This document shows positions 1-38,269 of a stretch of 38,269 nt of DNA, one piece after another. Position 1 is the stretch's first letter, and each line of letters begins with the position of its first letter. Source of the DNA: a virus; IMG/VR virus record IMGVR_UViG_3300029705_000074. The stretch is one strand, 5' to 3'. The position numbers were made by a program, and so were the translations under genes. The notes below the pieces were generated by a model. It saw only the letters and a program-made list of their open reading frames with translations, did no database searches and was not told the DNA's origin.

Positions 1-30
1 ACTACAGCACGGGCGGCCGCGTGGCCCCGG
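1..30 (+). repeat. DGR variable repeat (VR), 3'-terminal 30 bp only; the remainder lies upstream of the window
   Basis: Positions 1-30 align gap-free with TR positions 756-785 (26/30 identical). All 4 mismatches fall on TR adenines (A->T once, A->G three times). The shared GC-rich 3' end ggccgcgtggccccgg resembles an IMH (initiation of mutagenic homing) element. Confidence 0.8.
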
Positions 31-47
31 CTTTCGTTATTGGATAA
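1..47 (+). CDS. 3' end (partial) of the DGR target gene carrying the VR; predicted C-terminus ...RVAPAFVIG, stop TAA 45-47
   Basis: The VR reading frame matches the AAC-codon frame of the TR and continues to TAA at 45-47. The gene body is outside the window. Confidence 0.55.
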   Translation, partial: YSTGGRVAPAFVIG

Positions 48-149
48 GCGTAAATCGGTCAGCAAAACCAATACGGCAAAGTTTCACCGCGAGGGCAGTA
101 ATGATTAAAATAGCTTATTAAAAAATCAGTTAGAATAGGAGATAATATC

Positions 150-644
150 ATGTCTGTTAAGAAGAAAGACAGGCACGTTTCCAAGCGCGAATGTCTAGGT
201 AAATCAAGAGAGTTAATGAATTATATCCTAGTTCTTACTCGCCCTCGTGAGTTTGATAAGGATGGAAAATAGATTCAAAAACCCGGACTGCTTGGAGAGG
301 GACAACCTCTCCAGGCGTTCGGTTACGATATACTTACCTGCGGCAAGCGCATACACGCCGCCTGTTATGATGCTTGTGAGATTTATCTGAAAGATGAAGA
401 ATCTCTCGAAGCAAGGACTAAGTTACATAAGCAAGCTATTAAATACTGCGATAGCTTGTTTAGGATTATCGACCTTTGTATCTTTCAATATGCAAAGAAT
501 AACAAGAAGAAGCGTCGTTCTTTCGAGTGCTTGGCCAGATTGGTAAAAGCACAAAAAGAGAGCTTACAGGATAGATTAAACCGTGACAAGTTAATCTACG
601 AGCAAAAATACGAGTATCCTCGTCTTCGAAGAAGAGGTCGATAA
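150..644 (+). CDS. avd: Avd-like DGR accessory protein (small, basic, helical), 164 aa, with in-frame TAG at 270-272
   Basis: ATG at 150 preceded by AGGAG (137-141). The frame stays open through TAG 270-272 to TAA 642-644. The protein is Lys/Arg-rich and sits between target gene and TR, as in canonical DGRs. The track shows only the 3' 62-aa piece (456-644). Confidence 0.55.
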
Positions 645-688
645 ATATTGTTTCCTGGGTTAAATTCTGAATTCTTTCGACGCGTTCC

Positions 689-785
689 CGCAACACCAAC
701 AACTCGAACAACGTGTGCAATGTCAACAATGATGGTAGTGCGAACAACAACAACTACAACAACACGAACGGCCGCGTGGCCCCGG
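689..785 (+). repeat. DGR template repeat (TR)
   Basis: Adenine-rich segment that, in the target-gene frame, encodes 14 AAC (Asn) codons, e.g. aacaacaacaac at 743-754. Its 3' 30 bp match VR 1-30 with adenine-only mismatches. It ends in the GC-rich element ggccgcgtggccccgg (770-785). The 5' boundary is approximate because the VR is mostly outside the window. Confidence 0.85.
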
Positions 786-1156
786 ATTAGATGGAGCATC
801 ACGTCACGAGCTAAGTGCCGAAGGCACGCAAGCGAGTGACACCTAGGATTCCCCAGAATACATTACTCCCATCTAATTGTGGCTTTACTATCAGCCACAA
901 CTTCGCTCCTTGGCGTAATGCTGAGGTTCTAGAGTTTTGTTTTTTGAAGATGTATATTTAGAATTGTAATGTGTTATAGGTAGATCTGCCTTCTCATCTA
1001 AGGAGAATTTATCCCTCTCATGTGTAAGTAGGCATGGGTAAAATTTAAGATTGTAGATGCAGAACTCGAGAAGTAACTGCTATTACTGCATGATAAGGAG
1101 AGAGTGTTATTCAAGACCAAAATAATACTTTCGAGCGTTTTTGTAGTTTTGACGCT

Positions 1157-2320
1157 ATGTATGATGCCTCTTATAGAGTATGTCGAAACGTTCGATGGAA
1201 AGATAGTACAATCAATTTTGAAGAAACCAGAATAGAAACAATCCTGCAAACAGAAGCTGACCTGCGAGCTTGTGAATACGAGCAGCTTGTGTTTAGTTGT
1301 TTCTCAATAATCGAACGAGGCAAACCAAGAGATATAAGAGCGTGTCATATAGACGACAGACTGGTGCAAAATGCCCTCTGTGAAGAGACGCTGCTACCAG
1401 AATTGACTCCTAAATTCATCTACGACAATTGTGCAACCCTGAAAGGTAAAGGCATTGACTTTGCCCTAGACCGCTTTAAGAAGCATTTCCAATCGGCCCA
1501 TAGAGAATATGGGCTAGATAAAGATTTCTTCTGCCTTCGTATTGATATACGCAAATACTTTGACTCTATTGACCATAAAGCCTTGAAAGCAATAGCAAGG
1601 AAAGTGATTAAGGATAAACGAGTGTGCGAGCTATGCTGCTATCTCATTGATACATTTTCTTTTAAGCTAACCAAGGATAAGGAGCCAGTAGCAGGTAAGA
1701 CCTACTATATTATCAAGAACCATAAGTATGTGCGTGCGGCAGCCCCGTCTTTCCGGCCGGGCCGCAAGTACTATGAATATGAAGAAAGAAGTCTAGGCTT
1801 AGGAAGCCAAACATCACAATTGTTCGCCCTGTTGACATTGAACGAAGTTGACCACTTCATTAAAGAAACATTGCATATCAAGTATTATGGTCGCTACATG
1901 GATGACCTTTATCTCATGCATGGAGACAGCCAATATCTTGCGCAATGTTAGAAGCGGATTGAAGAAAAGTTGCGAGAAATTGGACTAGAGCTTAATCAGA
2001 AGAAAACCACGATTACTCGCGTCCAAACAATCATGGAGGATGGTGTACGCCATGCTCCAGTAAAATACCTTAAGTGGGACTTTTACATTACTTACACCAA
2101 CCATATCATTCAGACTCCCTTTAAGAAGAAAATCGTTCACCAGCGACGCAAGTTGCGTAAGATGCACGCACTTTGGGTAAAAGGTCTATTACCAACAGAA
2201 GAAGTGCAGAAATCTTATCAAGGTTGGAGAGCACACGTAATGAAGGGGACCTGTTTCTATATAGTTCAAGATATGGACAACTATTTTCGTTCACTATTCA
2301 AAGGAGTTGAGATTAAATGA
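1157..2320 (+). CDS. DGR reverse transcriptase, 387 aa, with in-frame TAG at 1949-1951
   Basis: RT motifs LRIDIRKYFDSIDH and YYGRYMDDLYLMHGD (YxDD). The DGR-specific motif LGLGSQTSQLF ([I/L]GxxxSQ) is present. DDRLVQNALCE resembles Bordetella bRT KDRLVQHALCN. Track ORFs 1157-1951 and 1970-2320 are in the same frame, separated only by TAG. Stop TGA 2318-2320 overlaps the next ATG (ATGA). Confidence 0.9.
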
Positions 2321-3000
2321 AATATGTCTTAATCAATAGAGGCAATGTTGTTGTTGACATCCTCAATGAAGTAAGATACATCAAACTACAATCCAACGGG
2401 TATGTCGTTGCCTGTCCGGAAAGTGAAGGTACTGGGGTTATCGGTTCTGACTGCGATACTCACTACGCTTTAATCAAAACCGATACGCTAAGCTCTCCAA
2501 ACGCAGTTCGCGTCATCGAGAGAGAAGAAATCCCATCTGAGTTAATGCCTGGCCTTTACAAGCTAGATACAGAGACTAATGAATTCGTGTATCGTTATTC
2601 TCTGGAAGAGGCTCAGGAAATGAAACAAGAGCAGAATAAGGTATTGTTCGCAGAATATCTTGCCGCTCACCCACTAACTTGGGTCGATGGGAAAGAATAT
2701 GGAGTCACAATGGAAGACCAGTCTGAGATTAGTTTGAACATTAACCAGTATCAGATTGCTCTTCAAGCGGGTGTCGAAAACCCTGTGCTCGAATGGCACG
2801 CTCGTCACGAAGAGTGTACCGCATGGCCCCTTGAACAGCTTGTTGCGCTGTCTTTGGCCATCTCTGAAGTCGTCTATCCTATGTATCGTCTATGCCAAGA
2901 ATATAAAATCGCTATCTATGGCGCAACCTCTATGGAGGAACTTGCGGCCGTCCAGCTTGTATATGGCGAGGAGCCTAGCGATGAGGAAGCAGCTGAATAA
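2317..3000 (+). CDS. hypothetical protein, 227 aa (possibly tail-fibre-assembly/DUF4376-like; weak)
   Basis: Uninterrupted ORF. The ATG overlaps the RT stop, suggesting translational coupling. Stop is TAA 2998-3000. The family guess rests only on N-terminal style and position. Confidence 0.45.
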   Translation: MKYVLINRGNVVVDILNEVRYIKLQSNGYVVACPESEGTGVIGSDCDTHYALIKTDTLSSPNAVRVIEREEIPSELMPGLYKLDTETNEFVYRYSLEEAQEMKQEQNKVLFAEYLAAHPLTWVDGKEYGVTMEDQSEISLNINQYQIALQAGVENPVLEWHARHEECTAWPLEQLVALSLAISEVVYPMYRLCQEYKIAIYGATSMEELAAVQLVYGEEPSDEEAAE

Positions 3001-3436
3001 GCTTATTGCCCTCTTTTTGACCGGTGGTACAATTTATTACCTCATTGAAGCAGTTTGGAAAAGCTGCTTCAGTGATGGTATACTACACTGGTCAATGTTC
3101 TTGCTTGGCGGGCTGTGTTTCGTTATTATCGGCGGTTTAAATGAGTATATACCCTGGGAAATGGATTTAATTAAACAGGGTCTAATAGGTGCTGTTGTAG
3201 TCACCTCATTGGAGTTCATTTTTGGCTGTATCCTCAATCTTTGGCTTGGCCTTGGCATTTGGGATTACAGCAATTCACCGCTAAACATATTAGGATAGAT
3301 TTGTTTACCTTTCTCAATAGCTTGGTTCTTCTTGGCTATTATCGCTATATTGCTTGATGATTTCCTGCGTTATAAATGGTTTGGCGAAGAAAAACCACAC
3401 TACCACATTCTCAATCGGCAACTTTGTGGTAAATAA
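2981..3436 (+). CDS. small polytopic membrane protein, 151 aa (holin-like or DUF1113-like), with in-frame TAG at 3296-3298
   Basis: ATG 2981 with GAGGAG 7 nt upstream. Several hydrophobic helices (LIALFLTGGTIYYLIEAVW, FLLGGLCFVIIGGL, GAVVVTSLEFIFGCILNLWLGLGIW). After TAG 3296 the frame continues into another hydrophobic helix (ICLPFSIAWFFLAIIAILL) and ends at TAA 3434-3436. Confidence 0.6.
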
Positions 3437-3482: not shown

Positions 3483-4244
3483 TTAGCCAACATCAATGAT
3501 AGAGATGGCAATGTTATTCTCTGGCTTAGTAGGTGAGGTAAATACAATACCTACACCGACAGTAGCCTCGGCACCGGAAATCTTGCTATATTCCTCGCGG
3601 TTATCAACATAGGTGATAATAGGATGTACGTTACCATCCTTACCGCAACGGATAGCGGTATTAGCATAGCTATAAGTATAACCATCTGTATCATTACCGG
3701 ACCATCCAGAGGCGGATAGAGTTGCGGTATAGATCACAGAGGTTGCCACTCCGATACGAGTATCGGTTTCGGCCTTGCTATAAACACTAAGGTTGGTACG
3801 TGCACCAGTCGCATCTGTAGCACCCAAACCACCAGCAGATAGAGGAAGTGTACCAAACTGAGGAATACCAGCTGTACTTGCATACAGAGCGCCAGTACCC
3901 TTCAATCCCGTGACACCATTGGTGGTATCACCGATTACCAGCGCGCCTTTCTCAATAGCAATAGCTCTAACAGTATTGTTATCGCCACCGACCAGAAGAG
4001 CATTTTTAGTGATGCCATCTGGAGAGTATAGCACTTCATCAACATCAATGAACTCGATTGCGGTGCCGTTATTTTTAATCAGAGTAGAAGCGTTTACAGT
4101 GTATCGACCGGTCTCGGTGTCAACTACAAATTCGCCGCTATCTTCGAAGAAGTACGCATAACCGGGATGTAGTGCGTAATTGGAGAAACCGTTAATGCCG
4201 TCAAAGTCATCAGCGGTTCCGCTATAAATCTTAAATAAAGCCAT
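3483..4244 (-). CDS. tail fibre/receptor-binding-like structural protein, 253 aa
   Basis: ATG 4244 with AAGGAGG upstream and TAA stop. Gly/Thr/Ser-rich beta-type composition. Last gene of the tail/fibre block. Confidence 0.55.
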   Translation of the reverse strand: MALFKIYSGTADDFDGINGFSNYALHPGYAYFFEDSGEFVVDTETGRYTVNASTLIKNNGTAIEFIDVDEVLYSPDGITKNALLVGGDNNTVRAIAIEKGALVIGDTTNGVTGLKGTGALYASTAGIPQFGTLPLSAGGLGATDATGARTNLSVYSKAETDTRIGVATSVIYTATLSASGWSGNDTDGYTYSYANTAIRCGKDGNVHPIITYVDNREEYSKISGAEATVGVGIVFTSPTKPENNIAISIIDVG

Positions 4245-4278: not shown

Positions 4279-6399
4279 TTAGGTTGTTACTTGTCCGCGT
4301 TCGTCTCCGCGAATAATGGGTACTGGGGCAGATTCAACCATATCTGGCAGAACATTAGAGTTATCTTCGTGTTCCACAAATCGTCCCCAAGTATTTAGTG
4401 TATCATCGAGAGCCCCTAATAGCTCGTCAATCTTAGCTTGTGAGTAGGTTTTCTTCTCGCCAGTTTCGGTATCAAGACCTTCAATCAGCGAGTTGACATA
4501 TGTGGCAGAATATGCCTTATCATCAGACTCAACATATACTCTTGCGATAAAGCTATCAACAGCACCAGTTAGCTGGGAATAGGTCCAAGCTCCAGCCACT
4601 CCTACTTGCGGAGCTGTCTTATAGAACCAATAGGCAATGTTACCAGAGTCATCAGCAATATTGGCAGAGTATAGTTGCTCAGATGTTGCATCAGAATGGT
4701 TTGCATCCAATACAGCAATAGCAGCCTCAATGCTTGCTTGTTCTCCAAGGTCTGCAATGAAGTTAAGCGCGGCGCCGGTCGGACCGACGAGATTTGCTAC
4801 CACTACTTTGCCAGATTCTTTGTACTCATACAGATCGCCGGTATCCGTATTTAACCAGTAATCTCCGGTAATTGCGCCCGCTGGCTCGGTGGTTCCAGAA
4901 TACATCTTACTTCCACGAGGGATACCAAACTTGAAACCAAGCTTATCGGCTCCACTGACCTCCACTGCCGCAGTCGCTTCTTCCGCAGGTCCAAGGGTTT
5001 TAGTTTCAGTAACCTCAGCCAACGGAGCAGTGGGCAATCCAAATGTGAAGCTCCAAGTGCCATCAGCAGCCTGTTCAAGCTCGACGGTTGGCTTTACAGC
5101 TTCTTTAGTGGTTGCGTCGTATGGATCAAGCGCATTAACCTTAGAGGTTCCATTAAAGCTGGGTAGTAAAGTACCCTTGGCTACCCAAACACCATCCACA
5201 AGTTCATAGATAGTGTTATTAGAAGTTATAATAACAATATCGCCATCATGGTATGTATCATCTACCGCAGGTAAGGTTGCCGCTTGATAGAACTTACCAG
5301 TACGTGGTAGTGTAAAGGTAAGAATCTGATGTGTACCATTCGCGTTAGGAGCCATTGTAACCCCAGGATCCTCACCCGGATTAACAAGTATTGTATCTGC
5401 TAACTCAAACTGCCAAGTATTAGGAATCGTGATATTAAGTACTGGATTATTGACATCAGTTTTGTCCAGCCATGCCTTAATATCCTCCTCTGCCACAGAT
5501 GGTTTTACATGAGTGACAGGCACTTGCTCCTCAAGGTTTTGAGATTGAGGAAGTTGTACTCGTAAAATCGGGGTATTGATGGTTGGCGTATACAGAATAT
5601 TAGCACCGCTACCATCTTTCTTATAGATAGGTTCATTATTGCTATCATAAGACTCGATGATATAATAACCTTGAACAGTATCTTTATTCTCGGTCTTGGT
5701 GATAATATAAGCCTTGGGCTTTTCACCAACATCCAAGATATCATACTCTGGATGTGCTACACCCTCAATTACTTGTACGCCAATACCCAAGAGGTTTTGA
5801 GACTTTGGTAGAGTAAACTTGAATCTACCGAGATAAGCCTGGTCTGGTGCCTCGTTGGTGCCATGACTACCAATATTGCGTAGCTCAACGGCAGGTAACA
5901 CGTCCACATTAGCTTCTACAATATCCTGAACACCATTGTCGAAATTCCAGCTACCTGGGATAGATAACTCAATTTCTACTTGGTCAGGGTAAGTTTCTCT
6001 TGTAGTATCAACTTCGGCCTTAGCGCCACTACCAGGAGCCAAAGTCTCCTTTACACTTGCTGTAATTCGTGGTGTAAAACCTGTTAATGTTGAGATAAGG
6101 GTGTATACAATACCAGTGCCTCCGGCGCTTTCGTCGTAACCCTTTCTCCAAAGAGTGGAGTTGTAACTTTTCTGCAAATCGTTAGCATTAGCCGCATAGG
6201 CCAGATCGCTATCTCGATTTGCAATAAACTTATCGCTACTAGGCTCACCGTAAGAAATCATTACATATTCGCCAACTGCGATAGAGGATTTCCACCCCTT
6301 GTTGATATCTCCGAGCAAGCCATCTGCTCCATAATAAGTCGGGAAAATCGCCTTAATTTCAAAGCTTTGTCCCGCAGGACCGCCATAAAAAGAATTCAT
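4279..6399 (-). CDS. large tail structural protein (fibre/spike-like), 706 aa
   Basis: Uninterrupted ORF. ATG 6399 with AAGGAGGG upstream. TAA stop 4279-4281. Confidence 0.6.
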   Translation of the reverse strand: MNSFYGGPAGQSFEIKAIFPTYYGADGLLGDINKGWKSSIAVGEYVMISYGEPSSDKFIANRDSDLAYAANANDLQKSYNSTLWRKGYDESAGGTGIVYTLISTLTGFTPRITASVKETLAPGSGAKAEVDTTRETYPDQVEIELSIPGSWNFDNGVQDIVEANVDVLPAVELRNIGSHGTNEAPDQAYLGRFKFTLPKSQNLLGIGVQVIEGVAHPEYDILDVGEKPKAYIITKTENKDTVQGYYIIESYDSNNEPIYKKDGSGANILYTPTINTPILRVQLPQSQNLEEQVPVTHVKPSVAEEDIKAWLDKTDVNNPVLNITIPNTWQFELADTILVNPGEDPGVTMAPNANGTHQILTFTLPRTGKFYQAATLPAVDDTYHDGDIVIITSNNTIYELVDGVWVAKGTLLPSFNGTSKVNALDPYDATTKEAVKPTVELEQAADGTWSFTFGLPTAPLAEVTETKTLGPAEEATAAVEVSGADKLGFKFGIPRGSKMYSGTTEPAGAITGDYWLNTDTGDLYEYKESGKVVVANLVGPTGAALNFIADLGEQASIEAAIAVLDANHSDATSEQLYSANIADDSGNIAYWFYKTAPQVGVAGAWTYSQLTGAVDSFIARVYVESDDKAYSATYVNSLIEGLDTETGEKKTYSQAKIDELLGALDDTLNTWGRFVEHEDNSNVLPDMVESAPVPIIRGDERGQVTT

Positions 6400-6411
6400 G
6401 ATCTACCCTCC

Positions 6412-7227
6412 TTATTCCATGATATAGTCGATAATGACATTCTCAAGGTCGCCAGGTTCTCCAGCAATATAAATGCCATTAACGCCTTCGTAATATCTGG
6501 CTCTTGCCACGGTATAAGCTGCCAGATATGTATCTTCGATTTTTCGCATCTCTGTCGTCTCATCTGCGCAAGCTTCCAGAATTTCCAATCGAGCTTCATA
6601 ATCAACTATATCACTACTTAATTGAGCAATTGTAGCTTGCTTTGCCACTATTTCTTGCTATTTAAGTTGATACTCTTGAGTACCCTCGACTAGTTCTTCA
6701 AGCTCTTTTTCCAGTAGCACTAAGGTTGCCTGCTCTTCCAATAAAACTGCCTGGGTTTCGGCCAACAGATTTGTATATTCCTTGATTTGCTCTTGAATGT
6801 CGAGCCAAGAAACCGCATAGCCATTGTCCGGATTTCCATCTGGGCTGGTCCAGGCTAAATAAGCTAATTCACGGTCGGACATTGCCGTCTCAATTCCAGC
6901 TTGACCTTCCGCTTTAGCTTCTTCTTCTTTTTCCGTGTCACGCTCATAATTCTGAGGCTGAATGAAATAAAGCTCAGTAATAGCGATATCTTCATCAAGC
7001 TCATAAATACCAGTTCGTCCAATCATAATCTGCTTAAGGTGGTTAAGCACCATCTAAGTACCAGGAGGGGCTTGAACACCAACCTTGGTAAGCTGTGTAG
7101 TTCCTGCTGACCCAATCTGCGCAATTAAGTCGCTATATGGATTAAAGTCTACTCCACTTTTAACCTAAGCAGTGAGATAACCAGAGCTACTAGGTATACG
7201 ATAGTACATTTGTCCAATTTGCGCCAT
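6412..7227 (-). CDS. hypothetical coiled-coil-rich protein, 271 aa, 3 in-frame TAG (6658, 7054, 7165)
   Basis: Track ORFs 6412-6648 and 6658-7053 are in the same frame. The frame is open through TAGs up to ATG 7225-7227, which is preceded by AAGGAGGAAAAGGCG. TAA stop at 6412. Confidence 0.55.
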
Positions 7228-7240
7228 CGCCTTTTCCTCC

Positions 7241-9175: not shown

Positions 9176-9193
9176 TACATTCTTTCTCCTTTC

Positions 9194-12018: not shown

Positions 12019-12115
12019 TATATCTTGCGCCTCCTTTTTCTCAATGTTCCTACTAAACCTAAAAATTCAATAAGACAAATAAATTGCTTTCGCCCATAAA
12101 TAGAGAAAGCGAGGG

Positions 12116-28656: not shown

Positions 28657-28671
28657 ACTCCGTTACCTCCT

Positions 28672-29761: not shown

Positions 29762-30532
29762 TCAGTACACCTTTATCGCATCGGACATACCACCGCTATT
29801 AAAAGCCGTGGGACTCATGGGGTGTAAATCCCTCATCCATGATTCAACGGGTTTATCAGGCTTACCGCCCGCGAGTCTAACGCGCAGGTCAGTATCCCAT
29901 TCAACATAACTGGTATATCTCTCCATTAGGTCAAACAGTTGGAACAGATTGCAGTTTAAGCACTGCTCGAGTGAAACCACTCCTGCTACTGTCAATACAG
30001 ATATATACCGAGTCAATACGCTTTCATTGCTTCCCTTATTTTTCAACTCAGCCACTTTGCGGCGGCCTCGCATGAGTTTATCAGCTATTTCTTTAGCCCT
30101 TTTGTTGACCGGATTATAGATAATATTCTCACCCTAAAAGATGCTGTTCACACATAAAACATCTTTTAGTACCGCCTAAAAATGATCAAAGTTGTCGTTA
30201 TCTATCAAGATAGTGTCCTACCCGTCAATCAACCTTAGGATAACACTATTCTTGGTTAATACCGCTGAATGATTTGGGAAAAGCAACTTCAGCAAGGTAA
30301 TTATAGCAGCCTTCTTGGTTTTGTCCTAAGACTGCTCTAATACTCTCACTAATACTTGAAAATTGCTTAAAGATGATGAAAGACTTTCGTCCTATATTAA
30401 AGACTCTTTTTCTAGGCACAAGTATTGTACCGCCATAAAGTAATCCGACTCACCCATAAAAGCTATATCTCTTATGATGGGAGGATGGACAGTGATTTGT
30501 AATTCAGGAATAGGAATGTCTACTCCCGCCAT
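29762..30532 (-). CDS. hypothetical protein, about 256 aa, 5 in-frame TAG; the track shows only the C-terminal 103 aa
   Basis: The frame of ORF 29762-30073 stays free of TAA/TGA for ~160 further codons upstream, through TAGs at 30134, 30176, 30218, 30326 and 30392, to the first ATG at 30530-30532. TGA stop at 29762. The start is uncertain because no clear SD is present. Confidence 0.45.
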
Positions 30533-30548: not shown

Positions 30549-31088
30549 TCATTCGTCAAGCGGATTCACCTAATCCTCATGACCACGAATGGCTAGGTAG
30601 GTCAAGGTAACCCCCGCAAACTCTTCGTCATAGACATATGGCACGGCAGAAACAAACATCAACTCTCCAATACCCGTCAAATGAGTCTTATCAAGCATTG
30701 CATCTATCTCTCCCGCAATACGATAAGGACGTAGCTCAAAATCCCCCAAATCCCAGTTGTCATAGTGACAAATGATGTCAATACCGAAAGTGTTATCTCG
30801 ATATTCGGGGTTTGTTGCATTACGCACAATATTGCCATAAATCAAGCGAAGATAAGTCTTTTCTGGTGCGTCTATCTTAACTTTAGGCACAGATGAAATC
30901 TGCTTAGTCTCAAACATTTCCTTAAGCATTTCACCAGTTACTTCTGGTTTACTCTTCCAGTCTCTTGAGTTGTAGCACATCAACTTCAAGACATTTTTAT
31001 TCGACAAGATTCTATCCATAATCAATGCAGCATCCTTGGGCATACCCAGCAAGCTTGATTTGGGGTACTCAAACGTATTCTTTTTCAT
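30549..31088 (-). CDS. hypothetical virion-associated protein, 179 aa, 1 in-frame TAG (30570)
   Basis: ATG 31088 with GAGGTGA upstream. The track stop is TAG. The true stop TGA 30549-30551 lies 7 codons later. Confidence 0.55.
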
Positions 31089-31099
31089 CGCTTATCACC

Positions 31100-32089
31100 T
31101 CAATACAAAGACTCTACCACAATGGTTTTTTCCAAAGACATACTGCCCTTAGTCCATTGCAATGTAAATTGTCCGCTCACCATTTTATTCCAAGTCACTG
31201 TCACTGTATTGGCATCAATCTGACAAATAGTAACTGGCACATCTTCAAGTACAGTCCACTTACCATCCGGTTCATCGGCTTTGTAAGTTTCTGCAATTTT
31301 AGGCTTGATAAATCCTTCGCCTTGAATGCCATCCACATTGGGTATGACTACAGGCTCGATAATCAGGCCTCCTGCAATTTCGTTTTCCACATCATCGGTT
31401 TCCCTATTGATGTAGTACTCCTCTGCGTTAACCTCGATAATGTTCTTCATGCTAATGCTATCTGGAGCCTCTACGCGCCAAGCTTTCCCGGCGAATAGGA
31501 ATTTGCTGTATCTATCAAAAGCTTGAAGAGTTTTTTCATTTCGAGGCATGAGAATATTTAAACTTAGATTAGGTTCATCTATTCTCTATTGGTTCTTCTG
31601 GATAGAGGTAATCTGTGTTTCTACAGGACCACGAATTGCGGCCCAGGTAGAGCACCAATTACCCTCTTCATCCTTGAACTTAATCTTATATCGACAACGC
31701 CGAATTTCTCCCCTAAAGTAAGCGTCCTCGGTAATCTCTTGGGTGTAGATAATCCACTGTGTGCCAGTCTTTACCCACTCAAACACATCACCTGGCTGAT
31801 ATTGATGCTCATAATCAATAGAAATGATTTTATCATCATAATCCTACTTAACTTTATCTGGGTTAATCAGCGCTCTAGCAATAGGAAAGACACTCATACC
31901 AGGATCCATCTGGTCAAGTTCAGCATTTAATACTTGTGCATAATGCTGAACCATCTACACAAAGCAGCCTTGATATGAGTATTTTAACGCACGTTGTAAG
32001 GTGCGCCATTTATCTTTAATCATGCGGTCTTCTTGGTGGATACCACCCTACCACTCAAGTCTCGCACGCATCAGGTCTAGATTATTCAT
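31100..32089 (-). CDS. hypothetical head-tail joining/neck-region protein, 329 aa, 4 in-frame TAG (32048, 31955, 31844, 31586)
   Basis: Track ORFs 31586-31786 and 31100-31549 are co-frame. The frame is open through TAGs up to ATG 32087-32089, which overlaps the TAA of the upstream gene. TGA stop 31100. Confidence 0.5.
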
Positions 32090-32390
32090 CCTTAAGTACG
32101 TGCGCGAGTAGGTCAATACATCTAAAGACCGTTTTGCGGTAAAGCATGAAATCTTCGCAAACCTGGGAGGTTAAGCCCTCTAGCTTAGACAACAATACAA
32201 GTCCTTCGGGCTTGTATTTGTATATCTCAACGAGGCCACTGATTTCTTCTATTAGAACAGCCAAATGGCTGGCCCAATCTTCACCATTCTCGCGCATGGG
32301 GATAAGTTTCCAGAGCTGATTGACTAATCTTTGTAGGTCTTGCTCTTTCACTCGGTAAGAGAAGCCAATTCCATATTTATCGTCAAACAT
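32082..32390 (-). CDS. small hypothetical protein, 102 aa
   Basis: ATG 32388-32390 lies 3 nt before the upstream gene's TGA (overlap). TAA stop 32082. Confidence 0.45.
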   Translation of the reverse strand: MFDDKYGIGFSYRVKEQDLQRLVNQLWKLIPMRENGEDWASHLAVLIEEISGLVEIYKYKPEGLVLLSKLEGLTSQVCEDFMLYRKTVFRCIDLLAHVLKDE

Positions 32391-32883
32391 CGAAAGTACT
32401 ACTTTCCATAAGGGTAGACCAATTAGACTTAATGGAACCCTTATTATCAATCAGCTTTCTACGTTTATACAGGCGTTGCATATGATGTGCTTGTCTTTCA
32501 GCTTCTCGCTTCAGCTCCATCAATTTAGCAAGGTGGTTCGCCTGTGATGTCATCTTAAAATCGGCACCCGAATACTTCATTCGAGTGTTTTCAATAGACG
32601 CAACTTGACGCTACAGCCAAGTATTATACATCAAGAGAGCAAAGATGTTAACCTCTTCTGACGTAAGATGACACCCGAATGTTTCAGCATTCGGGTCGTA
32701 ATCGTAAAGAGGGAATCGCGGAAACTCGAACCCTGGAATTGCGTCCAGCAAGATATTTTTCATATCTTTTAGAGTATCCTCGCGTGTCCACTCAAGATAC
32801 ATATCATCTGTAATCTTACCTAAAAATCTATCGTAGATTTCTTCGAAGGAGGTTGGTTCACCCTGAATTGGGTAATTATCCAT
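32383..32883 (-). CDS. hypothetical protein, 166 aa, 1 in-frame TAG (32611)
   Basis: Track ORFs 32611-32883 and 32383-32580 are co-frame and separated by TAG. ATG 32883 has AAAGGAGGAG upstream. TGA stop 32383. Confidence 0.55.
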
Positions 32884-32885: not shown

Positions 32886-33476
32886 TTACTCCTCCTTTAC
32901 GGTAATAGTGTTCTCCTTAGTGGTTTCTGGCACTACGATTGTGCTATTGGCGCGACGGCCTGCGGGAACGCTAGGTTGTACGCGTCTTTCGGCTTGCTTT
33001 GAGGCGCCGTCCGCAGGTTCATCGTAAGCGTGAGACAACTCAATAGCTTTCATAACGTCATAGCCAAGCTGCTCTTTAATAGCAGTAATCTTATTGGTGT
33101 CGGCCAGTGGCAACTCCACAGCGAATTTCTTAATCAAGTCCTTTGTGCCGATGGGTGCGAAATCAAGCGCATCCTGGAACTCTTCTAAAGAACAAGACTG
33201 CATCCAGCTAGGTAGCTTATCTGCTGTTAACCAGTATTCAATAGGTGGATTGCCATTCAGCAAATAGTTGATAATCTCAGGGTCTTGCACCTGCAAATAA
33301 TTGAACAGGGTATTTCGTCCGCCTGGACGTTGAGACAAAGCTTCAAGCTCTGCCACGGGGATGTTTTTCTTTACCTCATGTGGCATAAATTCACGACGGA
33401 CAGCCATTGGACCATCCTTAATGGTATAACCGACACGGCCAGCACTCTTGTTGGCAACAACACAAGTCTCTTTCAT
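32886..33476 (-). CDS. hypothetical head-associated protein, 196 aa
   Basis: ATG 33474-33476 has AAAAGGAGA 8 nt upstream. The track start at 33506 is a TTG without SD. TAA stop 32886. Confidence 0.55.
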   Translation of the reverse strand: MKETCVVANKSAGRVGYTIKDGPMAVRREFMPHEVKKNIPVAELEALSQRPGGRNTLFNYLQVQDPEIINYLLNGNPPIEYWLTADKLPSWMQSCSLEEFQDALDFAPIGTKDLIKKFAVELPLADTNKITAIKEQLGYDVMKAIELSHAYDEPADGASKQAERRVQPSVPAGRRANSTIVVPETTKENTITVKEE

Positions 33477-33550: not shown

Positions 33551-34597
33551 TTAGCCCTCTACTGGAGCGATGTTGTCCAGGTGACCCTGGAGCTCGGTGT
33601 CAACGTAACTGAAGATGTTGTTAGTCATCATCACACCAACGCCAACCTTACGGTAGACCTGGATGTCACGAGACCAGTCATCATTATCGTTACGCTCACG
33701 AATGTGAGTAGTGCCCTCGAAAGCAACCTTTACAGGCTTATCGTTGGCGCCAGCAGGAATAATCCAGCAGTAACCGGGGTCGATAACCTTGCGGCTGTTG
33801 GTTTCATCCTCAAGAGACTGAGGAAGAATAACAACGCGGGTGCCCTTGTAGTTAGCGAGGTAGCCCTGAGCCCAACGCTCGTCCTTCATGCGGTCAGAAA
33901 CCCAACCATCTTCAGGAACGATTTTCACAGCAAACTCACGAGTGCAGTAGATGGTAGGAGTACCATAAGCACTTGCAGTGTTTACGAGATAGTCAAGAGC
34001 AGCCTCGTCGAAACCAGCCCAAGATACCTTGTTAGCAGCGGGAAGCTGAGTTACAGCAGCCTGGAGAGCAGCCTGGATCTCACGATAAATGAGTTCCTGC
34101 ATACCTTCCATGACGATCTGGGTCAGCTCAGCGAAGTTTACACGACCATCAAGATACTCCTCGAAGCCGATGCGAGCGGCTCCGCCGATAGCACTGGTCT
34201 GTACTTCGAAGCTCTCAGAACCGAGCTTGAAGGTCTCATAGACACCTGCAAGACCAACGCGAGTAATGAACTGCTTGGCACGAGCATGGCCGGTTCTACG
34301 AGTGTAAACAGGGCGGTCACCCTGACCAAAGGTCTTAATCTCAGCGAAGGAACCATACACGTTCAGTAGGCGAGTAGGAACCAAATCATCCATAGTCTCT
34401 GCCATCAGAGCGAAGACCATGCGCTTATTCTGTTCGTAAAGTTCATCGGTAGCAGTCAGCTCTCTCAGCTCATTCTGCAGGGTTGCGTCCATAGCAGCAT
34501 AGGTGAGATTCTCTCCATTGAAGGAATAGTTTCCAGAAGGAGTGCCGTTAGCCACGTTCTTCATGAGTTGAAGCAAATTAGCTCTATCTAATGCCAT
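33551..34597 (-). CDS. putative major capsid protein, 348 aa
   Basis: Uninterrupted ORF. Strong SD (AAGGAAGGAGAG). Followed by a stem-loop. Located after the portal, protease/scaffold and head-protein genes. Size is typical of HK97-fold capsid proteins. Confidence 0.5.
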   Translation of the reverse strand: MALDRANLLQLMKNVANGTPSGNYSFNGENLTYAAMDATLQNELRELTATDELYEQNKRMVFALMAETMDDLVPTRLLNVYGSFAEIKTFGQGDRPVYTRRTGHARAKQFITRVGLAGVYETFKLGSESFEVQTSAIGGAARIGFEEYLDGRVNFAELTQIVMEGMQELIYREIQAALQAAVTQLPAANKVSWAGFDEAALDYLVNTASAYGTPTIYCTREFAVKIVPEDGWVSDRMKDERWAQGYLANYKGTRVVILPQSLEDETNSRKVIDPGYCWIIPAGANDKPVKVAFEGTTHIRERNDNDDWSRDIQVYRKVGVGVMMTNNIFSYVDTELQGHLDNIAPVEG

Positions 34598-34617
34598 GAT
34601 TTATCTCTCCTTCCTTA

Positions 34618-35298
34618 TTACGCTACGCGTCTTACTTTAACACCTGGTTGCATATCAGGTGTGGTGTAAACCTTGTCAACCACGAAACAAGGATCGAGAT
34701 CGCCACCGGCGCCCTCGCCAGCAACAAGATAGCCATCAGCGCCAATCTTGAGCAAGTCACCCTTGTTCAGAGAACCAATTTCTGCCATAATAGTATTGGT
34801 GGTCCAATGATCGCCAACACTGATGTAGAGAACACGGGGAACCATCTTTGTTCCTTCGGGCATCATCTGAGGATAGTTGAAAGTACCAACCTGCTTCTGA
34901 TAGCCAACGGTAGTGCCCTCACGGACTGCACTGTCGGAATAATCAAGAACAGTCTGCATAGCAGAGCTATCCTGACCAACAGGGCTATAAACACGAGCAT
35001 TATAATTCTGCTTAATCATAGCAAAATCAGCTTCGGTCTCACGGTCACGATAAATCTTGACCTCATTGAAAACCATCATCCAAGCGCCTGCGGCCTTCTC
35101 AGCGGAGAAGCTGCAAACACCATTGCTGTAATCATACTTCACGAACTGGCCGTTCTCAAGCAGGTCGATGTCTGCTGCAGCGGGAAGCTGTGCGTAAACC
35201 TGACCATTACGTGGAGCAGAAAGGTGGTTAGGTTCAACCTGACCATAACCATACTGGACATAAGTCGCCTTACCAAGGCGAGTACCACTTTTAGCCAT
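34618..35298 (-). CDS. head protein (function unassigned), 226 aa
   Basis: Uninterrupted ORF. AAGGAGGAAATTACAC-ATG. TAA stop. Confidence 0.5.
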   Translation of the reverse strand: MAKSGTRLGKATYVQYGYGQVEPNHLSAPRNGQVYAQLPAAADIDLLENGQFVKYDYSNGVCSFSAEKAAGAWMMVFNEVKIYRDRETEADFAMIKQNYNARVYSPVGQDSSAMQTVLDYSDSAVREGTTVGYQKQVGTFNYPQMMPEGTKMVPRVLYISVGDHWTTNTIMAEIGSLNKGDLLKIGADGYLVAGEGAGGDLDPCFVVDKVYTTPDMQPGVKVRRVA

Positions 35299-35312
35299 GT
35301 GTAATTTCCTCC

Positions 35313-36605
35313 TTAATTTTTCTTAGCAGTATTGCGTACTGCCTTTACCCAATCTGGAGCATTGTCTTGCTCTTCAGCACCGTTAAGATTGAACATACCG
35401 GTGGGAGCATCAGGTTTCTGCTCCTCTTGTTCTTGTGGCTTATTAAGGTTGAAATCAACCTTGTTACGCACACAGATAACAGAGAGTTTAGCCTCAATGT
35501 CATCTAGAGAATAAGTATCAATATGCTCAACGACTTCCTTCTTGTCTTCGTCAGTCAGCATATAGAAACTATCAATCATAGACTGCTTATCCTTACGCTC
35601 GGCCTGTAGCTTGAACTCTTTCAAACCACTAACCTCTGCTTCAAGATTAGCTTTATCCTGCTCAAGAGCACTATACTTACCCTGGAGCTCCTCATACTGA
35701 GCTTTCAGCTCAACATACTCGGTAACTTCCTCAAGAGTATAGTTCTTCTTATCTTTCTTATCATCTTCAGCAGGCTTGTCTTCGGGCTTATTGTCCCCAT
35801 CTGCAGGAGCGGAAGCGGGAGTTTCCTTCTGCTTCTCTTCCTCTTGCTCAGGAGTCTTCTTTTCGAATTCATTCTCTGGGTTTAGAACCAGGTCTTTATT
35901 CTCTTCCATAGGACCCTAAGAACCTCCTTCATTCAAAGTATTTTGTAGCTCGGTTATCATAGAGAACATGGTCCGCTTGAATTCTTGGAACTCAGGATTG
36001 TTCTCTAGGGAGAATTCGGTTTTGAACTGCGCGCCTTCGAAGCAAGGCTCGACGTTCTCCCCAAGGATACACAATTTTTCTATCAATGCTTCATTGTAAA
36101 TGAAAATTCTTCCACGCGAATTATCTGCTTCTGCCCAAAAACCTTCTTGAAATTCTTTGGACAACTCCATAGAGTGATTATTACCTTGAGTAATGATACG
36201 CTGGGACTCGGGATAGGCCCCAGTCCAAATGTAACATTCAGTCACAAGATACTCTCTCTCAACGCCATCATCATCTCTGAATTTCTGAAACCAAACTCTT
36301 GCATTGGGAGGAACAAAACCATAGGGTCTTGTCACATCCACAACTTTAAGTTTGCCTCCACCTATCTGGACTTCTCGGTTATGTCCTTCAAAGTCTTTTA
36401 AGCTCTCATTGTAGTAACCCACAACAGGAGAACCAGGTAATTTCTTACCAAGCTTATAGGCTAATTCCTTTGTGATAACAGTATTGTTTCTGTTAGGTTC
36501 TTGACCAACATAGCAAACTTTCACGTAGCATTTACTGATCAAAGGGGATACTTCTGTCGCACTGATATACTCCATAGTATCAGAAGTTGGAATACTGATA
36601 TGCAA
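35313..36605 (-). CDS. putative prohead protease-scaffolding fusion protein, 430 aa, 1 in-frame TAG (35916)
   Basis: Track ORFs 35916-36605 (229 aa) and 35313-35909 (198 aa, acidic/Lys-rich, coiled-coil, scaffold-like) are co-frame. Only TAG + 2 codons separate them. TTG start 36605 has AAAGGAGGG upstream. TAA stop 35313. Confidence 0.45.
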
Positions 36606-36619
36606 GTTTAGCCCCTCCT

Positions 36620-38266
36620 TTATTGTGATTCGCCGTTGATAATGGTCTTGTCAGATTTTTCCTGTTCGGGTTTCTCTGGACGACCATTCTTCTTTTCGCC
36701 TACCACAGCAGTTTCCGCCTATTTATTTTGAGTTTTATTCTTAGTATCCTAATTATTCTTGTCCAAGTCTTTTCCACTCATTGTACTACTCATCATTGGA
36801 GGTATCATAATATCAGCAAGACTAAGAACTTCATTCTCAAAAGTCAAGGTTGCCAGAATACTTGACTGGGAGTGACCAAGAGCAATTAAAGATAATAGCT
36901 TTGGCCCACCAATTTGCATTTGCTCCTTATACATCTTCGACAAGTCTCGGTAATTAAACTGAGTAGTCTCCAACATACTTACCCTAAACTCATAATGATT
37001 TTTACGGTTGAACCGTTGAATTACACGAGTAAACATGGTAGCAAACTGCAACGGTAAATCTCTCATGTGCGCTTCGTCAACCAAAATTGCATTAGTGGTT
37101 GCCAAGTTACCATCCGCATTGAATAGATTATGAGACACACCAGCATTGTTATACACGGTACGCTCCACTTTTTCAAGGTCGTCGGTACTGGTTGCAGAAT
37201 TTGCATCCTTAGTGTCAATCTTCTCAATATCAGCAAAAGTAGTCAACACATCAATGCCAATCGCGCGTTTAAGCATGGCAACCGCATTATTGTGAATATC
37301 TTTTGCTTCATCTACATCGAAAATCAAGTCACCATTCTTATCAAGAGGCAACTTCTGAACGATAATCTTGAGTAACTGCTGCATTGTTTTTTGTCTATCA
37401 AGCTCTTGAGCTTGGTCAAGGTCAATAATAGACGGAATCACGCTAACAAAAGAAGGGAAGTCACAATCATTCAAGCTAAGTTTTACAGAAACCTCCGGGT
37501 CTAACGGATACCAACAACTGCGGTCGCCGGGGTAATCTCCCTTTAACCTACCTTGTTTATACAGTACATAAGCCTGTTGGATATCCTTAGGGAAGGTCTT
37601 TAGAATCGTTGCTCTGTATTGCCAGTTTGGGAAATACGCATCAAAGAACTGTAGATTTAGCTCAATAATTGGGGTAATTCCAGAATAGTAACGACTGCGG
37701 CAATAGGTGGCTGGCAGCTTTTGGACTCCAAAACGATCGCCGAAATCCACGATAGTGGCATAATAGGCTCCTTCTTTGATGATATCCAAAGCTATCTTAT
37801 CGCACATTCGCTTCACGTCAGACTTATCCAAATAAGAAAGCACTTTAGAGAAATCTTTCAAGACTTTGTTTTGATTTTCCTTGGATGCATCATCTACATA
37901 TGGAGTTACATACCAGTCATAACGATAAAGCTTCGCTAAATAATTGCACAGTCTATAGTAAATACCGCTTGACTCATAGAAGTAATTAGAAATCTCTCTA
38001 AGCGTACTATAATCATGACGATAAATAGCATTTAAGACAAAGGTCTTATTACCATAGTTCGCGTTTACCTTCTTATATGAACCAAGGTTAACGAGCACAT
38101 CATCGGTCTTCCGCATACCAATTCTCAAAGCTGCGAAGTCTCTCGACGTATCGTATTCTTCACCATCGGCGGTAATATCCAACTGATAAGTTGTGTTGGG
38201 TTTTTCTGTCATGTCAAACCCTTTAGGGTGAGCACTACGTTGTCGCTGTTTTAGCAAGATTATCAC
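36620..38266 (-). CDS. putative portal protein, at least 548 aa (5' end may extend beyond window), 2 in-frame TAG (36749, 36719)
   Basis: Large ORF at the head of the morphogenesis module. The track stop 36749 is TAG. The frame continues to TAA 36620-36622. A plausible internal ATG start is at 38212. Confidence 0.45.
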
Positions 38267-38269
38267 CTC

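What the first reader, a model, noticed from the sequence alone, without database searches (positions are those of the whole stretch)
1..38269. Amber (TAG) stop-codon reassignment across the whole window
The translated genes contain about 70 in-frame TAG codons. Examples:
- A 9.1-kb minus-strand frame (17371-26505) is open except for ~24 TAG.
- A 4.0-kb frame (13291-17319) is open except for 8 TAG.
- The RT catalytic domain continues in frame after TAG 1949.
- A membrane helix continues after TAG 3296.
- The 'intergenic' region 30074-30532 is an open protein-like frame with 5 TAG.

All gene ends that fit operon logic are TAA or TGA. Many sit on the next gene's SD or form ATGA overlaps. The bases flanking each TAG were read directly. 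Assignment to Gln (code 15-like) is inference from known recoded gut phages. The 6-frame ORF track is therefore misleading here.
Basis: partly seen in the sequence, partly recalled or inferred. Interest (0 to 1): 0.9.

Follow-up and report, generated by a model that had tools for sequence, protein, structure and literature searches.

The report
Gut phage reading TAG as glutamine
This window is the virion-gene block of an SPbeta-like human-gut phage that reads the amber stop codon TAG as glutamine, a real but already well-described recoding (genetic code 15) in a phage group where it has been reported before.

Summary

- **Gene model.** With only TAA and TGA as stops, the window resolves into 26 tightly packed genes. 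They cover 96% of the window, and most follow AAGGAGG-type Shine-Dalgarno sites. They contain 74 in-frame TAG and no in-frame TAA or TGA.
- **Against chance.** The longest such frame has 3059 codons. The maximum in 200 dinucleotide shuffles was 403. Making TGA or TAA sense instead gives no gain.
- **Readthrough.** Profile matches for the reverse transcriptase, tape measure, portal and others run across TAG positions as single stretches. Peptides downstream of TAG are conserved, including in standard-code Enterococcus phage EF1.
- **Amino acid.** In codon alignments with relatives, TAG interchanges mainly with CAA and CAG. Gln beats every other amino acid by 26–85 nats in four comparisons.
- **Suppressor tRNA.** None lies in the window. 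A sister phage (79% identical capsid protein) carries a tRNA(CUA) on the same contig. phAss-1, the closest described relative (NCBI 'Caudoviricetes code 15 clade'), has three.
- **Prior knowledge.** Some public gene calls on same-species contigs of 136–147 kb already treat TAG as sense.

Verdict: a new member of a known kind, of low to moderate interest. Two side findings are worth noting. The genes for the major capsid protein, the tail tube and three others avoid TAG entirely, here and in relatives. A diversity-generating retroelement is present whose RT gene carries a TAG.

The parts
1..46 (+). 3' end of the DGR target gene, including the tail of the variable repeat (VR, about 1-33) and the TAA stop at 44-46. 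The rest of the gene lies left of the window.
   Evidence: Same-species contig L006 carries a 543-aa Big_3/DUF6273 gene ending here. The VR/TR pair is 110 nt, and nearly all of the mismatches inside it fall on TR adenines.
150..644 (+). g01, 164 aa, one in-frame TAG (270). It sits where a DGR accessory (Avd) gene would be; function not shown.
   Evidence: SD plus ATG. No Pfam or PHROG hit. The L002 orthologue is 71% identical and has 6 TAG.
679..788 (+). DGR template repeat (TR)
   Evidence: 110-nt repeat, 84% identical to the VR; nearly all TR/VR differences inside the repeat are at TR adenines.
1157..2320 (+). g02, DGR-type reverse transcriptase, 387 aa, in-frame TAG at 1949
   Evidence: Pfam RVT_1 2e-16, residues 55-305 in one stretch. 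phrog_1423 7e-77, residues 1-381. The L002 orthologue carries several in-frame TAGs (11 in the full gene).
2317..3000 (+). g03, 227 aa, no TAG. ATGA overlap with the RT stop.
   Evidence: The exact protein occurs on 22 public contigs.
2981..3436 (+). g04, 151-aa membrane protein (PF06541), in-frame TAG at 3296
   Evidence: Pfam 2.4e-13, residues 12-124, across the TAG. The relative has NILGQVCLPFS against NILGxICLPFS here.
3483..4244 (-). g05, tail-fibre-like protein, 253 aa, no TAG
   Evidence: phrog_1591 tail fiber, 2.7e-5.
4279..6399 (-). g06, 706-aa tail protein, no TAG
   Evidence: phrog_4120 minor tail, weak hit.
6412..7227 (-). g07, 271 aa, 3 TAG (7167, 7056, 6660)
7241..9175 (-). g08, 644-aa tail protein, 6 TAG
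   Evidence: phrog_32343 and phrog_1887. Full-length homologues of 634-651 aa have Q at 4 of the 6 TAG positions.
9194..12019 (-). g09, 941-aa tail/baseplate protein, 8 TAG, including one five codons before the stop
   Evidence: phrog_30026. C-terminus CLTSxTRMK against CLTAQTTMK in L002.
12116..12505 (-). g10, 129 aa, no TAG
   Evidence: phrog_1401.
12526..13278 (-). g11, 250 aa, 2 TAG
13291..17319 (-). g12, 1342-aa tail protein, 8 TAG
   Evidence: The 1296-aa L002 orthologue is 59-63% identical and has 16 TAG.
17371..26505 (-). g13, tail tape measure protein, 3044 aa, 24 TAG
   Evidence: phrog_4211 2e-59, residues 47-503 in one stretch across 3 TAGs. PF10145 is recorded on the same-species protein.
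26608..27141 (-). g14, 177 aa, no TAG
   Evidence: EF1 homologue.
27193..28656 (-). g15, 487 aa, 6 TAG
   Evidence: Orthologues carry 8-24 TAG.
28795..29727 (-). g16, tail tube protein (YomU-like), 310 aa, no TAG
   Evidence: phrog_2729 4e-58. PF27173 YomU_Tube is recorded on the same-species protein.
29762..30532 (-). g17, 256 aa, 5 TAG.
   Evidence: phrog_4051 4.5e-25, residues 6-235 in one stretch across all 5 TAGs. EF1 homologue.
30549..31088 (-). g18, YomW-like, 179 aa, 1 TAG (30572) eight codons before the TGA stop
   Evidence: The post-TAG peptide VNPL is conserved; relatives have AAG (Lys) or TAG at that position. PF27256 is recorded on the same-species protein.
31100..32089 (-). g19, 329 aa, 4 TAG
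   Evidence: phrog_31155.
32082..32390 (-). g20, 102 aa, no TAG
   Evidence: EF1 homologue.
32383..32883 (-). g21, 166 aa, 1 TAG
   Evidence: EF1 homologue, E = 1e-33.
32886..33476 (-). g22, 196 aa, no TAG
33551..34597 (-). g23, major capsid protein (YonB-like), 348 aa, no TAG
   Evidence: phrog_4088 1e-57. PF27364 YonB. 52% identical to the phAss-1 protein and 36% to EF1.
34618..35298 (-). g24, 226-aa head protein, no TAG
35313..36605 (-). g25, YonD-like scaffold/head protein, 430 aa, TTG start, 1 TAG
   Evidence: phrog_3313 1.5e-39, residues 16-291 across the TAG. PF27290 is recorded on the same-species protein.
36620..38269 (-). g26, portal protein. The open frame runs to the window edge; the same-species portal call is 530 aa, matching the ATG at 38212, so the gene may be complete. 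2 TAG near the C-terminus (36751, 36721).
   Evidence: phrog_2739 portal 2e-82, residues 80-544 across both TAGs. The C-terminal motif after the TAGs is conserved in EF1.

Best explanation
The window is the late, virion-gene region (portal to tail fibres) plus a diversity-generating retroelement of an SPbeta-like siphophage from the human gut, with a genome of roughly 136-147 kb. In this phage TAG is a sense codon for glutamine (genetic code 15), and only TAA and TGA terminate.

The likely mechanism has three steps:
- The phage infects a standard-code Bacillota host.
- It supplies its own amber-suppressor tRNA(CUA), which carries tRNA-Gln-like acceptor features.
- That tRNA out-competes release factor 1 at UAG, so the 16 TAG-containing genes are made full length only once the suppressor is present.

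Shown here: TAG is read through, and Gln is the best-fitting amino acid. Inferred from relatives and the literature: the suppressor tRNA, the host's code, and the timing.
For: - Only TAG interrupts the frames: 74 TAG against 0 TAA/TGA over 12,264 codons. The longest frame is 3059 codons, against 403 in the best of 200 shuffles.
- Coding signal continues across TAG in 67 of 69 segments.
- Single-stretch HMM matches span TAGs in the RT, PF06541 protein, tape measure, portal, g17 and g25.
- Post-TAG peptides are conserved, including in standard-code EF1.
- TAG interchanges with CAA/CAG. Gln is favoured by 26-85 nats in four relatives.
- Full-length homologues have Q at 4 of the 6 TAG sites in g08.
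- A tRNA(CUA) lies on IMG/VR contig 3300045988_055134, the same contig that encodes an MCP 79% identical to the window's.
- A related 147.6-kb contig (L166) has a tRNA(CUA) whose acceptor-stem positions 2-7/66-71 and G73 match its own tRNA-Gln(CUG).
- phAss-1 (MCP 52% identical) has three tRNA-Sup-CTA genes and is filed under the 'Caudoviricetes code 15 clade' (PMC10607447).
- The TAG-to-Gln reading has been confirmed by proteomics in crAss-like gut phages (PMC9523058).
Against: - No tRNA of any kind lies in the window or in the roughly 15 kb of same-species flanks I could read. I could not show that the window's own genome carries a tRNA(CUA).
- The host is unknown. Hits in MAGs are free phage-sized contigs binned with Collinsella, Eubacterium and Oscillospiraceae.
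- Against the only standard-code outgroup (EF1, about 29% identity), Gln is favoured by just 1.2 nats. The amino-acid call therefore rests mainly on relatives that are themselves recoded, though at different positions.
- There are no protein-level data for this phage.
Confidence: 0.88

Rival explanations
1. TAG is translated, but as an amino acid other than Gln. Candidates are pyrrolysine or lysine, or Ser/Leu/Tyr delivered by the class-II-like tRNA(CUA) with a long variable arm seen in relatives.
For: ARAGORN labels the CUA tRNAs 'Pyl', but only from the anticodon. One tRNA(CUA) in L085 and one in phAss-1 have a long variable arm, as Ser, Leu and Tyr tRNAs do. Lys is the second most common partner of TAG.
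Against: Q beats K by 77, 59 and 85 nats in three of the four comparisons (in the fourth, L016, the runner-up is N, 26 nats behind), and S, Y and L fare worse still. CAA, two mutations away from TAG, is as frequent a partner as CAG. Even the long-arm tRNA has a mismatched 1:72 pair and G73, as tRNA-Gln does (read directly). No pyl genes were seen in any locus read.
Confidence: 0.05
2. The code is standard and the region is a decaying or pseudogenised prophage, or an assembly or sequencing artefact. The TAGs would then be genuine truncations.
For: Under code 11 the genes fragment into 95 pieces. Some public pipelines (JGI, Logan) did call them fragmented.
Against: Decay would also introduce TAA, TGA and frameshifts, and there are none in 12,264 codons. 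The same sequence recurs at 96-100% identity in independent assemblies. The sister clade occurs in 879 collection blocks, with TAGs at different, turning-over positions and protein sequence conserved.
Confidence: 0.01
3. TAG is not fully reassigned. It is a deliberately leaky stop whose partial suppression sets protein dosage or timing, so both truncated and full-length products matter.
For: TAG is absent from the genes for the presumably most abundant virion proteins (MCP, tail tube, g24, g22, g14). Counts are 0/49 Gln-type codons against 74/521 elsewhere, P = 0.0013. The same holds in six relatives, with P down to 1e-11. TAG makes up only 13% of Gln-type codons. Borges et al. propose a regulatory use of recoding (bioRxiv 10.1101/2021.08.26.457843).
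Against: A 3044-aa tape measure with 24 TAGs would essentially never be completed unless suppression were very efficient. Truncated tape-measure, portal or RT fragments have no plausible function. This is a refinement of the main explanation more than an alternative to it.
Confidence: 0.25

Closest known systems
phAss-1 and the related group of human-gut phages (proposed genus Phassvirus and its wider monophyletic group; Babkin et al. 2023, PMC10607447; NCBI 'Caudoviricetes code 15 clade')
   Same: - Homologous capsid, portal and tail genes (MCP 52% identical; overall about 40% over 3789 aligned residues).
- A giant tape measure: 3044 aa here, 3149 aa in phAss-1.
- Genome size class of about 135-147 kb, and a human-gut source.
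- In-frame TAG in virion genes but not in the MCP.
- tRNA(CUA) genes in relatives.
   Different: - Not the same genus. There is no megablast match to any INPHARED record, and the paper notes that phAss-1 synteny differs from the rest of the group.
- The window's species and its 70%-nt sister clade are not among the records I could identify in that paper.
- The window carries a DGR next to the tail genes. I did not look for one in phAss-1.
Code-15 (TAG to Gln) gut phages in general: crAss-like phages, Lak and the 'gemstone' clades (Borges et al., bioRxiv 10.1101/2021.08.26.457843; Peters et al. 2022, PMC9523058; Cook et al. 2024, PMC11210395)
   Same: The same reassignment, concentrated in late structural genes. 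Suppressor tRNA(CUA) is encoded by the phage lineage. Code-11 gene calls come out fragmented.
   Different: An unrelated lineage: an SPbeta-like siphophage, probably of Bacillota, rather than Crassvirales or Lak phages of Bacteroidota. There is no proteomic confirmation for this lineage.
Bacillus phage SPbeta and Enterococcus phage EF1 (standard-code relatives)
   Same: Shared virion module. The Pfam families YonG, YonD, YonB, YomW and YomU are recorded on same-species proteins. EF1 orthologues exist for 15 of the 26 genes, in the same order.
   Different: These phages use the standard code: 0 in-frame TAG in all EF1 orthologues. Protein identity is only about 29%.

Membership tests
Genetic code 15 (TAG = Gln) phage | Conserved genes interrupted by in-frame TAG but never by TAA or TGA, far beyond chance | tested here: met
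   74 TAG, 0 TAA/TGA. Longest frame 3059 codons against at most 403 in 200 shuffles. Control reassignments of TGA or TAA give no gain.
Genetic code 15 (TAG = Gln) phage | Homology and coding signal continue across and after TAG positions | tested here: met
   Single-stretch HMM matches. 67 of 69 segments are in frame. Conserved post-TAG peptides, including in standard-code EF1.
Genetic code 15 (TAG = Gln) phage | Gln aligns at TAG positions in homologues | tested here: met
   Q is best by 26-85 nats in four relatives and by 10 nats against phAss-1, but only 1.2 nats against the distant EF1.
Genetic code 15 (TAG = Gln) phage | Suppressor tRNA(CUA) encoded in the phage genome | tested here: inconclusive
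   None in the window or the same-species flanks. Present on the same contig as the MCP orthologue in a sister phage, in related contig L166 and in phAss-1. The rest of this species' genome could not be read.
Genetic code 15 (TAG = Gln) phage | Peptides with Gln at TAG positions (proteomics) | not testable with these tools
   Done for crAss-like phages only (PMC9523058).
Genetic code 15 (TAG = Gln) phage | The host uses the standard code | not tested
   Host unknown. The GTDB scan found only phage-sized contigs binned into MAGs.
phAss-1-related / SPbeta-like gut phage group | Homologous, syntenic head-tail module with a tape measure of about 3000 aa, and a genome of about 130-150 kb | tested here: met
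   MCP 52% identical to phAss-1. Tape measure 3044 aa. Same-species contigs of 136-147 kb. SPbeta Pfam families.
Genus Phassvirus (phAss-1, ctckW2, ct6IQ4) | High genome-wide nucleotide similarity to phAss-1. The three members share 80-86% nucleotide identity. | tested here: not met
   No megablast match of 25 kb of the window to any INPHARED record, phAss-1 included. Protein identity is about 40%.
Diversity-generating retroelement (side finding) | RT gene plus a TR/VR repeat pair whose mismatches fall on TR adenines, with the VR at the 3' end of a target gene | tested here: met
   RVT_1 and phrog_1423. The TR (679-788) and VR (tail at 1-33, remainder in L006) differ almost only at TR adenines. 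The target is a Big_3/DUF6273 protein.
Diversity-generating retroelement (side finding) | Accessory variability determinant (Avd) | tested here: inconclusive
   g01 sits in the expected position, but it has no Pfam or PHROG match.

The most novel reading that the evidence does not exclude
In this phage lineage TAG is more than a reassigned codon: it acts as a graded gate on expression. The five genes for the presumably highest-copy virion proteins (major capsid, tail tube, g24, g22, g14) are kept completely free of TAG across all relatives. This holds even where TAG supplies about half of all Gln codons in neighbouring late genes. In contrast, low-copy proteins (portal, tape measure, baseplate/fibre proteins) and the DGR reverse transcriptase are loaded with TAG. 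Their output, and mutagenic retrohoming itself, would then depend on suppressor-tRNA level.
Probability: 0.3. Interest if true: 0.5.

Novelty: new member of a known kind. Interest (0 to 1): 0.25.

Why it matters
In practical terms, any code-11 annotation of this region is wrong. It breaks 26 genes into about 95 fragments and hides a 3044-aa tape measure, the portal and a DGR reverse transcriptase.

Biologically, the window adds one more lineage to the known TAG-to-Gln phages: an SPbeta-like phage, probably of Bacillota, whose sister clade is abundant in gut metagenomes. It offers a clean case for studying how recoded codons are distributed between high-copy and low-copy virion proteins.

It does not change what is known about how recoding works.

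Tried and rejected
- **Own suppressor tRNA.** ARAGORN found nothing in the window or in 11 flanking or related loci. I then traced a protein that sits next to the tRNA cluster in a sister phage, looked up two homologues and listed ten clusters. L166, with its 22 tRNAs including CUA, is therefore only a relative.
- **Exact look-ups.** The tail tube protein is not on record. The MCP look-up with a short flank showed one small contig.
- **INPHARED.** Megablast of 25 kb of the window found no match.
- **Host.** The GTDB scan found only free phage-sized contigs binned into three unrelated MAGs, not prophages.
- **EF1 as outgroup for amino-acid identity.** It is too divergent (about 29% identity), and Gln leads by only 1.2 nats.
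- **Rfam.** Nothing in the window reached a gathering threshold.
- **Local Pfam copy.** It lacks the SPbeta families (PF27xxx), so those names come from hits precomputed on same-species proteins.
- **Rejected readings.** TGA or TAA reassignment gives no gain in frame length. Pseudogenisation is excluded by the absence of in-frame TAA/TGA. Pyrrolysine is disfavoured by the substitution pattern.

Full report

I listed every frame that is open when only TAA and TGA count as stops. The window then shows a run of long, abutting minus-strand frames: 4279-6411, 6412-7251, 7241-9193, 9194-12040, 12526-13278, 13291-17358, 17371-26550, 27193-28662 and onward to 36620-38269. There is also a short plus-strand block at 105-3436.

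- The largest frame has 3059-3060 codons and contains 24 TAG. The next has 1356 codons and 8 TAG.
- In 200 dinucleotide-preserving shuffles, the longest TAA/TGA-free frame averaged 214 codons and never exceeded 403.
- The two control reassignments, TGA as sense or TAA as sense, leave the longest frame essentially as under code 11: 707 and 726 codons, against 707.

So the effect is specific to TAG and far beyond chance.

**2. Gene model**

Almost every frame begins with ATG. Most of these starts lie 5-10 nt downstream of an AAGGAGG-like Shine-Dalgarno site, and one starts with TTG.

- The model has 26 genes and covers 96.3% of the window.
- It contains 74 in-frame TAG and no in-frame TAA or TGA in 12,264 codons.
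- Genes end in TAA 19 times and TGA 7 times.
- Under code 11 the same frames break into 95 fragments with a median of 78 aa.
- TAG is 13% of Gln-type codons (74 TAG, 280 CAA, 216 CAG). Counting TAG as Gln gives a normal Gln content of 4.6%.

They are the 9.1-kb and 4.0-kb frames, TAG 1949 in the RT, TAG 3296 in a membrane protein, and five TAGs in the 'intergenic' region 30074-30532, which is gene g17. Two small corrections apply: TAGs 111 and 6405 lie upstream of the likely starts, and the membrane-protein gene starts at 2981.

**3. Is TAG translated?**

Five independent lines say yes.

- **Stop-codon specificity.** Only TAG interrupts the frames.
- **Coding signal.** A codon-usage model trained only on the ten TAG-free genes ranks the annotated frame best of six in 67 of 69 inter-TAG segments of at least 30 codons.
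- **Profile matches across TAGs, each as a single stretch.**
  - Pfam RVT_1, residues 55-305, TAG at residue 265.
  - PF06541, residues 12-124, TAG at residue 106.
  - PHROG tape measure, residues 47-503, three TAGs.
  - PHROG portal, residues 80-544 of 549, two TAGs.
  - phrog_4051 over g17, residues 6-235, five TAGs.
  - phrog_1423 over the whole RT.
- **Conserved sequence after TAGs near gene ends, up to the same stop.**
  - g18: HEDxVNPL here, NEDKVNPL in relatives.
  - g09: CLTSxTRMK here, CLTAQTTMK in L002.
  - The portal C-terminal motif GRPEK...SDKTI follows both portal TAGs and is also present in Enterococcus phage EF1.
- **A standard-code relative.** EF1 has long intact genes under code 11 and no in-frame TAG in any orthologue. 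It aligns through the TAG positions in 15 of the window's genes.

This excludes pseudogenes and truncated products.

**4. Which amino acid?**

A homology search with g08 returned full-length proteins of 634-651 aa. Q stands at four of the six TAG positions in all of them.

Those proteins come from contigs whose genes also contain TAG. The public gene caller had used a TAG-sense code, which is why the look-up reported 'translates to query: no'. I therefore compared codons rather than translated residues.

- Against relative L002 (about 60% protein identity), 28 window TAGs aligned. Their partners were TAG (7), CAA (4), CAG (3), and otherwise mostly Lys, Arg and Thr codons.
- In the other direction, 67 L002 TAGs paired with window CAG (15), CAA (10), TAG (7), and otherwise mostly Glu and Lys codons.
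- I repeated this with seven further loci. A likelihood test used each alignment's own substitution counts.
- Gln beat the next-best amino acid by 77 nats (L002), 26 (L016), 59 (L169), 85 (L170) and 10 (phAss-1).
- CAA is two mutations from TAG yet pairs with it as often as CAG does. Mutational proximity therefore does not explain the pattern.
- EF1 is too distant to discriminate (1.2 nats).

**5. What the window is**

- The capsid protein's best matches among deposited phages are an unannotated gut contig (53%) and phage phAss-1 (52%). Enterococcus, Clostridioides and SPbeta-like Staphylococcus phages follow at 24-36%.
- phAss-1 is the type of a group of roughly 135-kb human-gut phages described in 2023. 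These phages use TAG as Gln, have a tape measure of about 3150 aa, and carry tRNA-Sup-CTA genes. NCBI files phAss-1 under the 'Caudoviricetes code 15 clade' (PMC10607447).
- Same-species contigs, 96-100% identical in nucleotides, exist in ENA, Logan, JGI and IMG/VR. Three of them are 136-147 kb long.
- On the ENA contigs the genes are already called full length, for example the 3044-aa tape measure. On the JGI and Logan contigs they are fragmented.
- Pfam families recorded for these same-species proteins are the SPbeta virion families YonG, YonD, YonB (capsid), YomW and YomU (tube), plus PhageMin_Tail.
- A sister clade, about 70% identical in nucleotides and 77-80% in protein, is very common. 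One of its proteins occurs in 879 collection blocks. Its TAGs are more numerous and at partly different positions.

**6. Mechanism**

No tRNA lies in the window or in the same-species flanks I could read. Evidence for a suppressor tRNA comes from relatives.

- A pattern scan of IMG/VR for CUA-anticodon tRNAs hit contig 3300045988_055134. This contig also encodes a capsid protein 79% identical to the window's.
- ARAGORN and Rfam confirm a tRNA(CUA) there, inside a tRNA cluster.
- A related 147.6-kb ENA contig (L166) has 22 tRNAs, including one tRNA(CUA). Its acceptor stem (positions 2-7/66-71), its G73 discriminator and its unpaired 1:72 position resemble those of the phage's own tRNA-Gln(CUG).
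- A weak first base pair and G73 are known identity features of bacterial tRNA-Gln. That point rests on my own knowledge.
- phAss-1 has three CUA tRNAs.

I could not tie any tRNA-bearing contig to the window's own species. This step therefore remains an inference from close relatives.

The accepted model is a standard-code host, with a phage suppressor tRNA competing against RF1 and recoding concentrated in late genes. It comes from Borges et al. (bioRxiv 10.1101/2021.08.26.457843). Peters et al. (PMC9523058) supplied proteomic proof in crAss-like phages.

The flank data are consistent with this model. Opposite-strand, non-structural blocks next to the window, which include a serine recombinase gene, are mostly free of TAG.

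**7. Rival explanations**

- **Decay or artefact.** Excluded by the absence of TAA, TGA and frameshifts, and by recurrence of the sequence in independent assemblies.
- **Another amino acid (Pyl, Lys, Ser, Leu, Tyr).** Strongly disfavoured by the likelihood test. However, one conserved tRNA(CUA) with a long variable arm, in L085 and phAss-1, is unexplained.
- **A 'leaky stop' or dosage role.** This is compatible with the main explanation and is the most interesting open point (section 8).

**8. Side findings**

- **Uneven TAG use.** TAG use differs among genes (permutation P = 0.017).
  - The genes for the major capsid protein, the tail tube, g24, g22 and g14 have 0 TAG among 49 Gln-type codons. 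The remaining genes have 74 among 521 (P = 0.0013).
  - The same five genes are TAG-free, or nearly so, in six relatives. This includes relatives where TAG makes up about half of the Gln codons in neighbouring genes (P down to 1e-11).
  - The gene set was chosen after seeing the window. The tests in relatives are therefore the more meaningful ones, though they are not phylogenetically independent.
- **A diversity-generating retroelement.**
  - The template repeat lies at 679-788.
  - The last ~33 nt of the variable repeat lie at 1-33, at the end of a Big_3/DUF6273 target gene.
  - Mismatches fall almost entirely on template adenines.
  - The RT gene carries one TAG here; its L002 orthologue carries several.
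- **Ribosome-rescue genes in a relative.** L166 encodes a tmRNA (Rfam, 83.8 bits) beside an ArfA-like ORF within its tRNA cluster.

**9. Verdict**

- The phenomenon, the lineage-level precedent and even correct public gene calls already exist.
- This is a new member of a known kind. The species is absent from the deposited-phage collection I searched (INPHARED), and it falls outside the genus Phassvirus.
- Interest is low to moderate.

Noticed in passing
window 1-46, 679-788, 1157-2320 (with L006:7608-7717): A complete diversity-generating retroelement. The TR lies at 679-788 and the VR tail at 1-33, at the end of a Big_3/DUF6273 target gene that lies mostly left of the window. TR/VR differences inside the repeat fall almost only on TR adenines. 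The VR also differs between strains (window against L006), which suggests the element is active. The RT gene contains a TAG.
   Followed up: partly
window 26608-27141, 28795-29727, 32886-33476, 33551-34597, 34618-35298: The genes for the major capsid protein, the tail tube and three neighbours contain no TAG at all. Their orthologues in six relatives are also TAG-free, apart from one TAG in one capsid gene, even where TAG supplies about half of the Gln codons in adjacent late genes (Fisher P from 0.005 down to 1e-11).
   Followed up: yes
L166:16280-17153 (related 147.6-kb ENA contig, not shown to be the same species): A phage-encoded tmRNA (Rfam RF00023, 83.8 bits) lies next to a 50-aa ORF with a weak ArfA (ribosome-rescue factor) Pfam hit. 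Both sit inside the tRNA cluster that holds the tRNA(CUA). This could relate to rescuing ribosomes that read through host TAG stops.
   Followed up: no
L085:7911-8001 and L014:3377-3467 (phAss-1): A conserved 91-nt tRNA(CUA) has a long variable arm (class-II-like) together with a mismatched 1:72 pair and G73. It is unclear which amino acid it carries.
   Followed up: partly
L007, L008 versus L006, L009 (same species): Different public pipelines called the same DNA differently. ENA contigs carry full-length TAG-sense genes. JGI and Logan contigs carry code-11 fragments, for example the RT split into 264 and 116 aa.
   Followed up: yes
L006:1250-5387 and L010:548-2501 (same-species flanks): Opposite-strand, non-structural blocks flanking the window are almost free of in-frame TAG. 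They include a serine recombinase (Resolvase), PARG, DUF488 and FolD genes. This fits the idea of early or lysogeny genes kept readable in the standard code.
   Followed up: partly
window 13291-14400 (C-terminal part of g12): A short motif recurs three times in the C-terminal part of the 1342-aa tail protein: GNIGGWTL, GKIGGWTI and GSIGGWAI. Not analysed.
   Followed up: no
window 2981-3436: A PF06541 ('putative ABC-transporter type IV') small membrane protein is encoded directly after the DGR genes. The arrangement is conserved in the sister clade. Its role (holin-like or other) is unknown.
   Followed up: no
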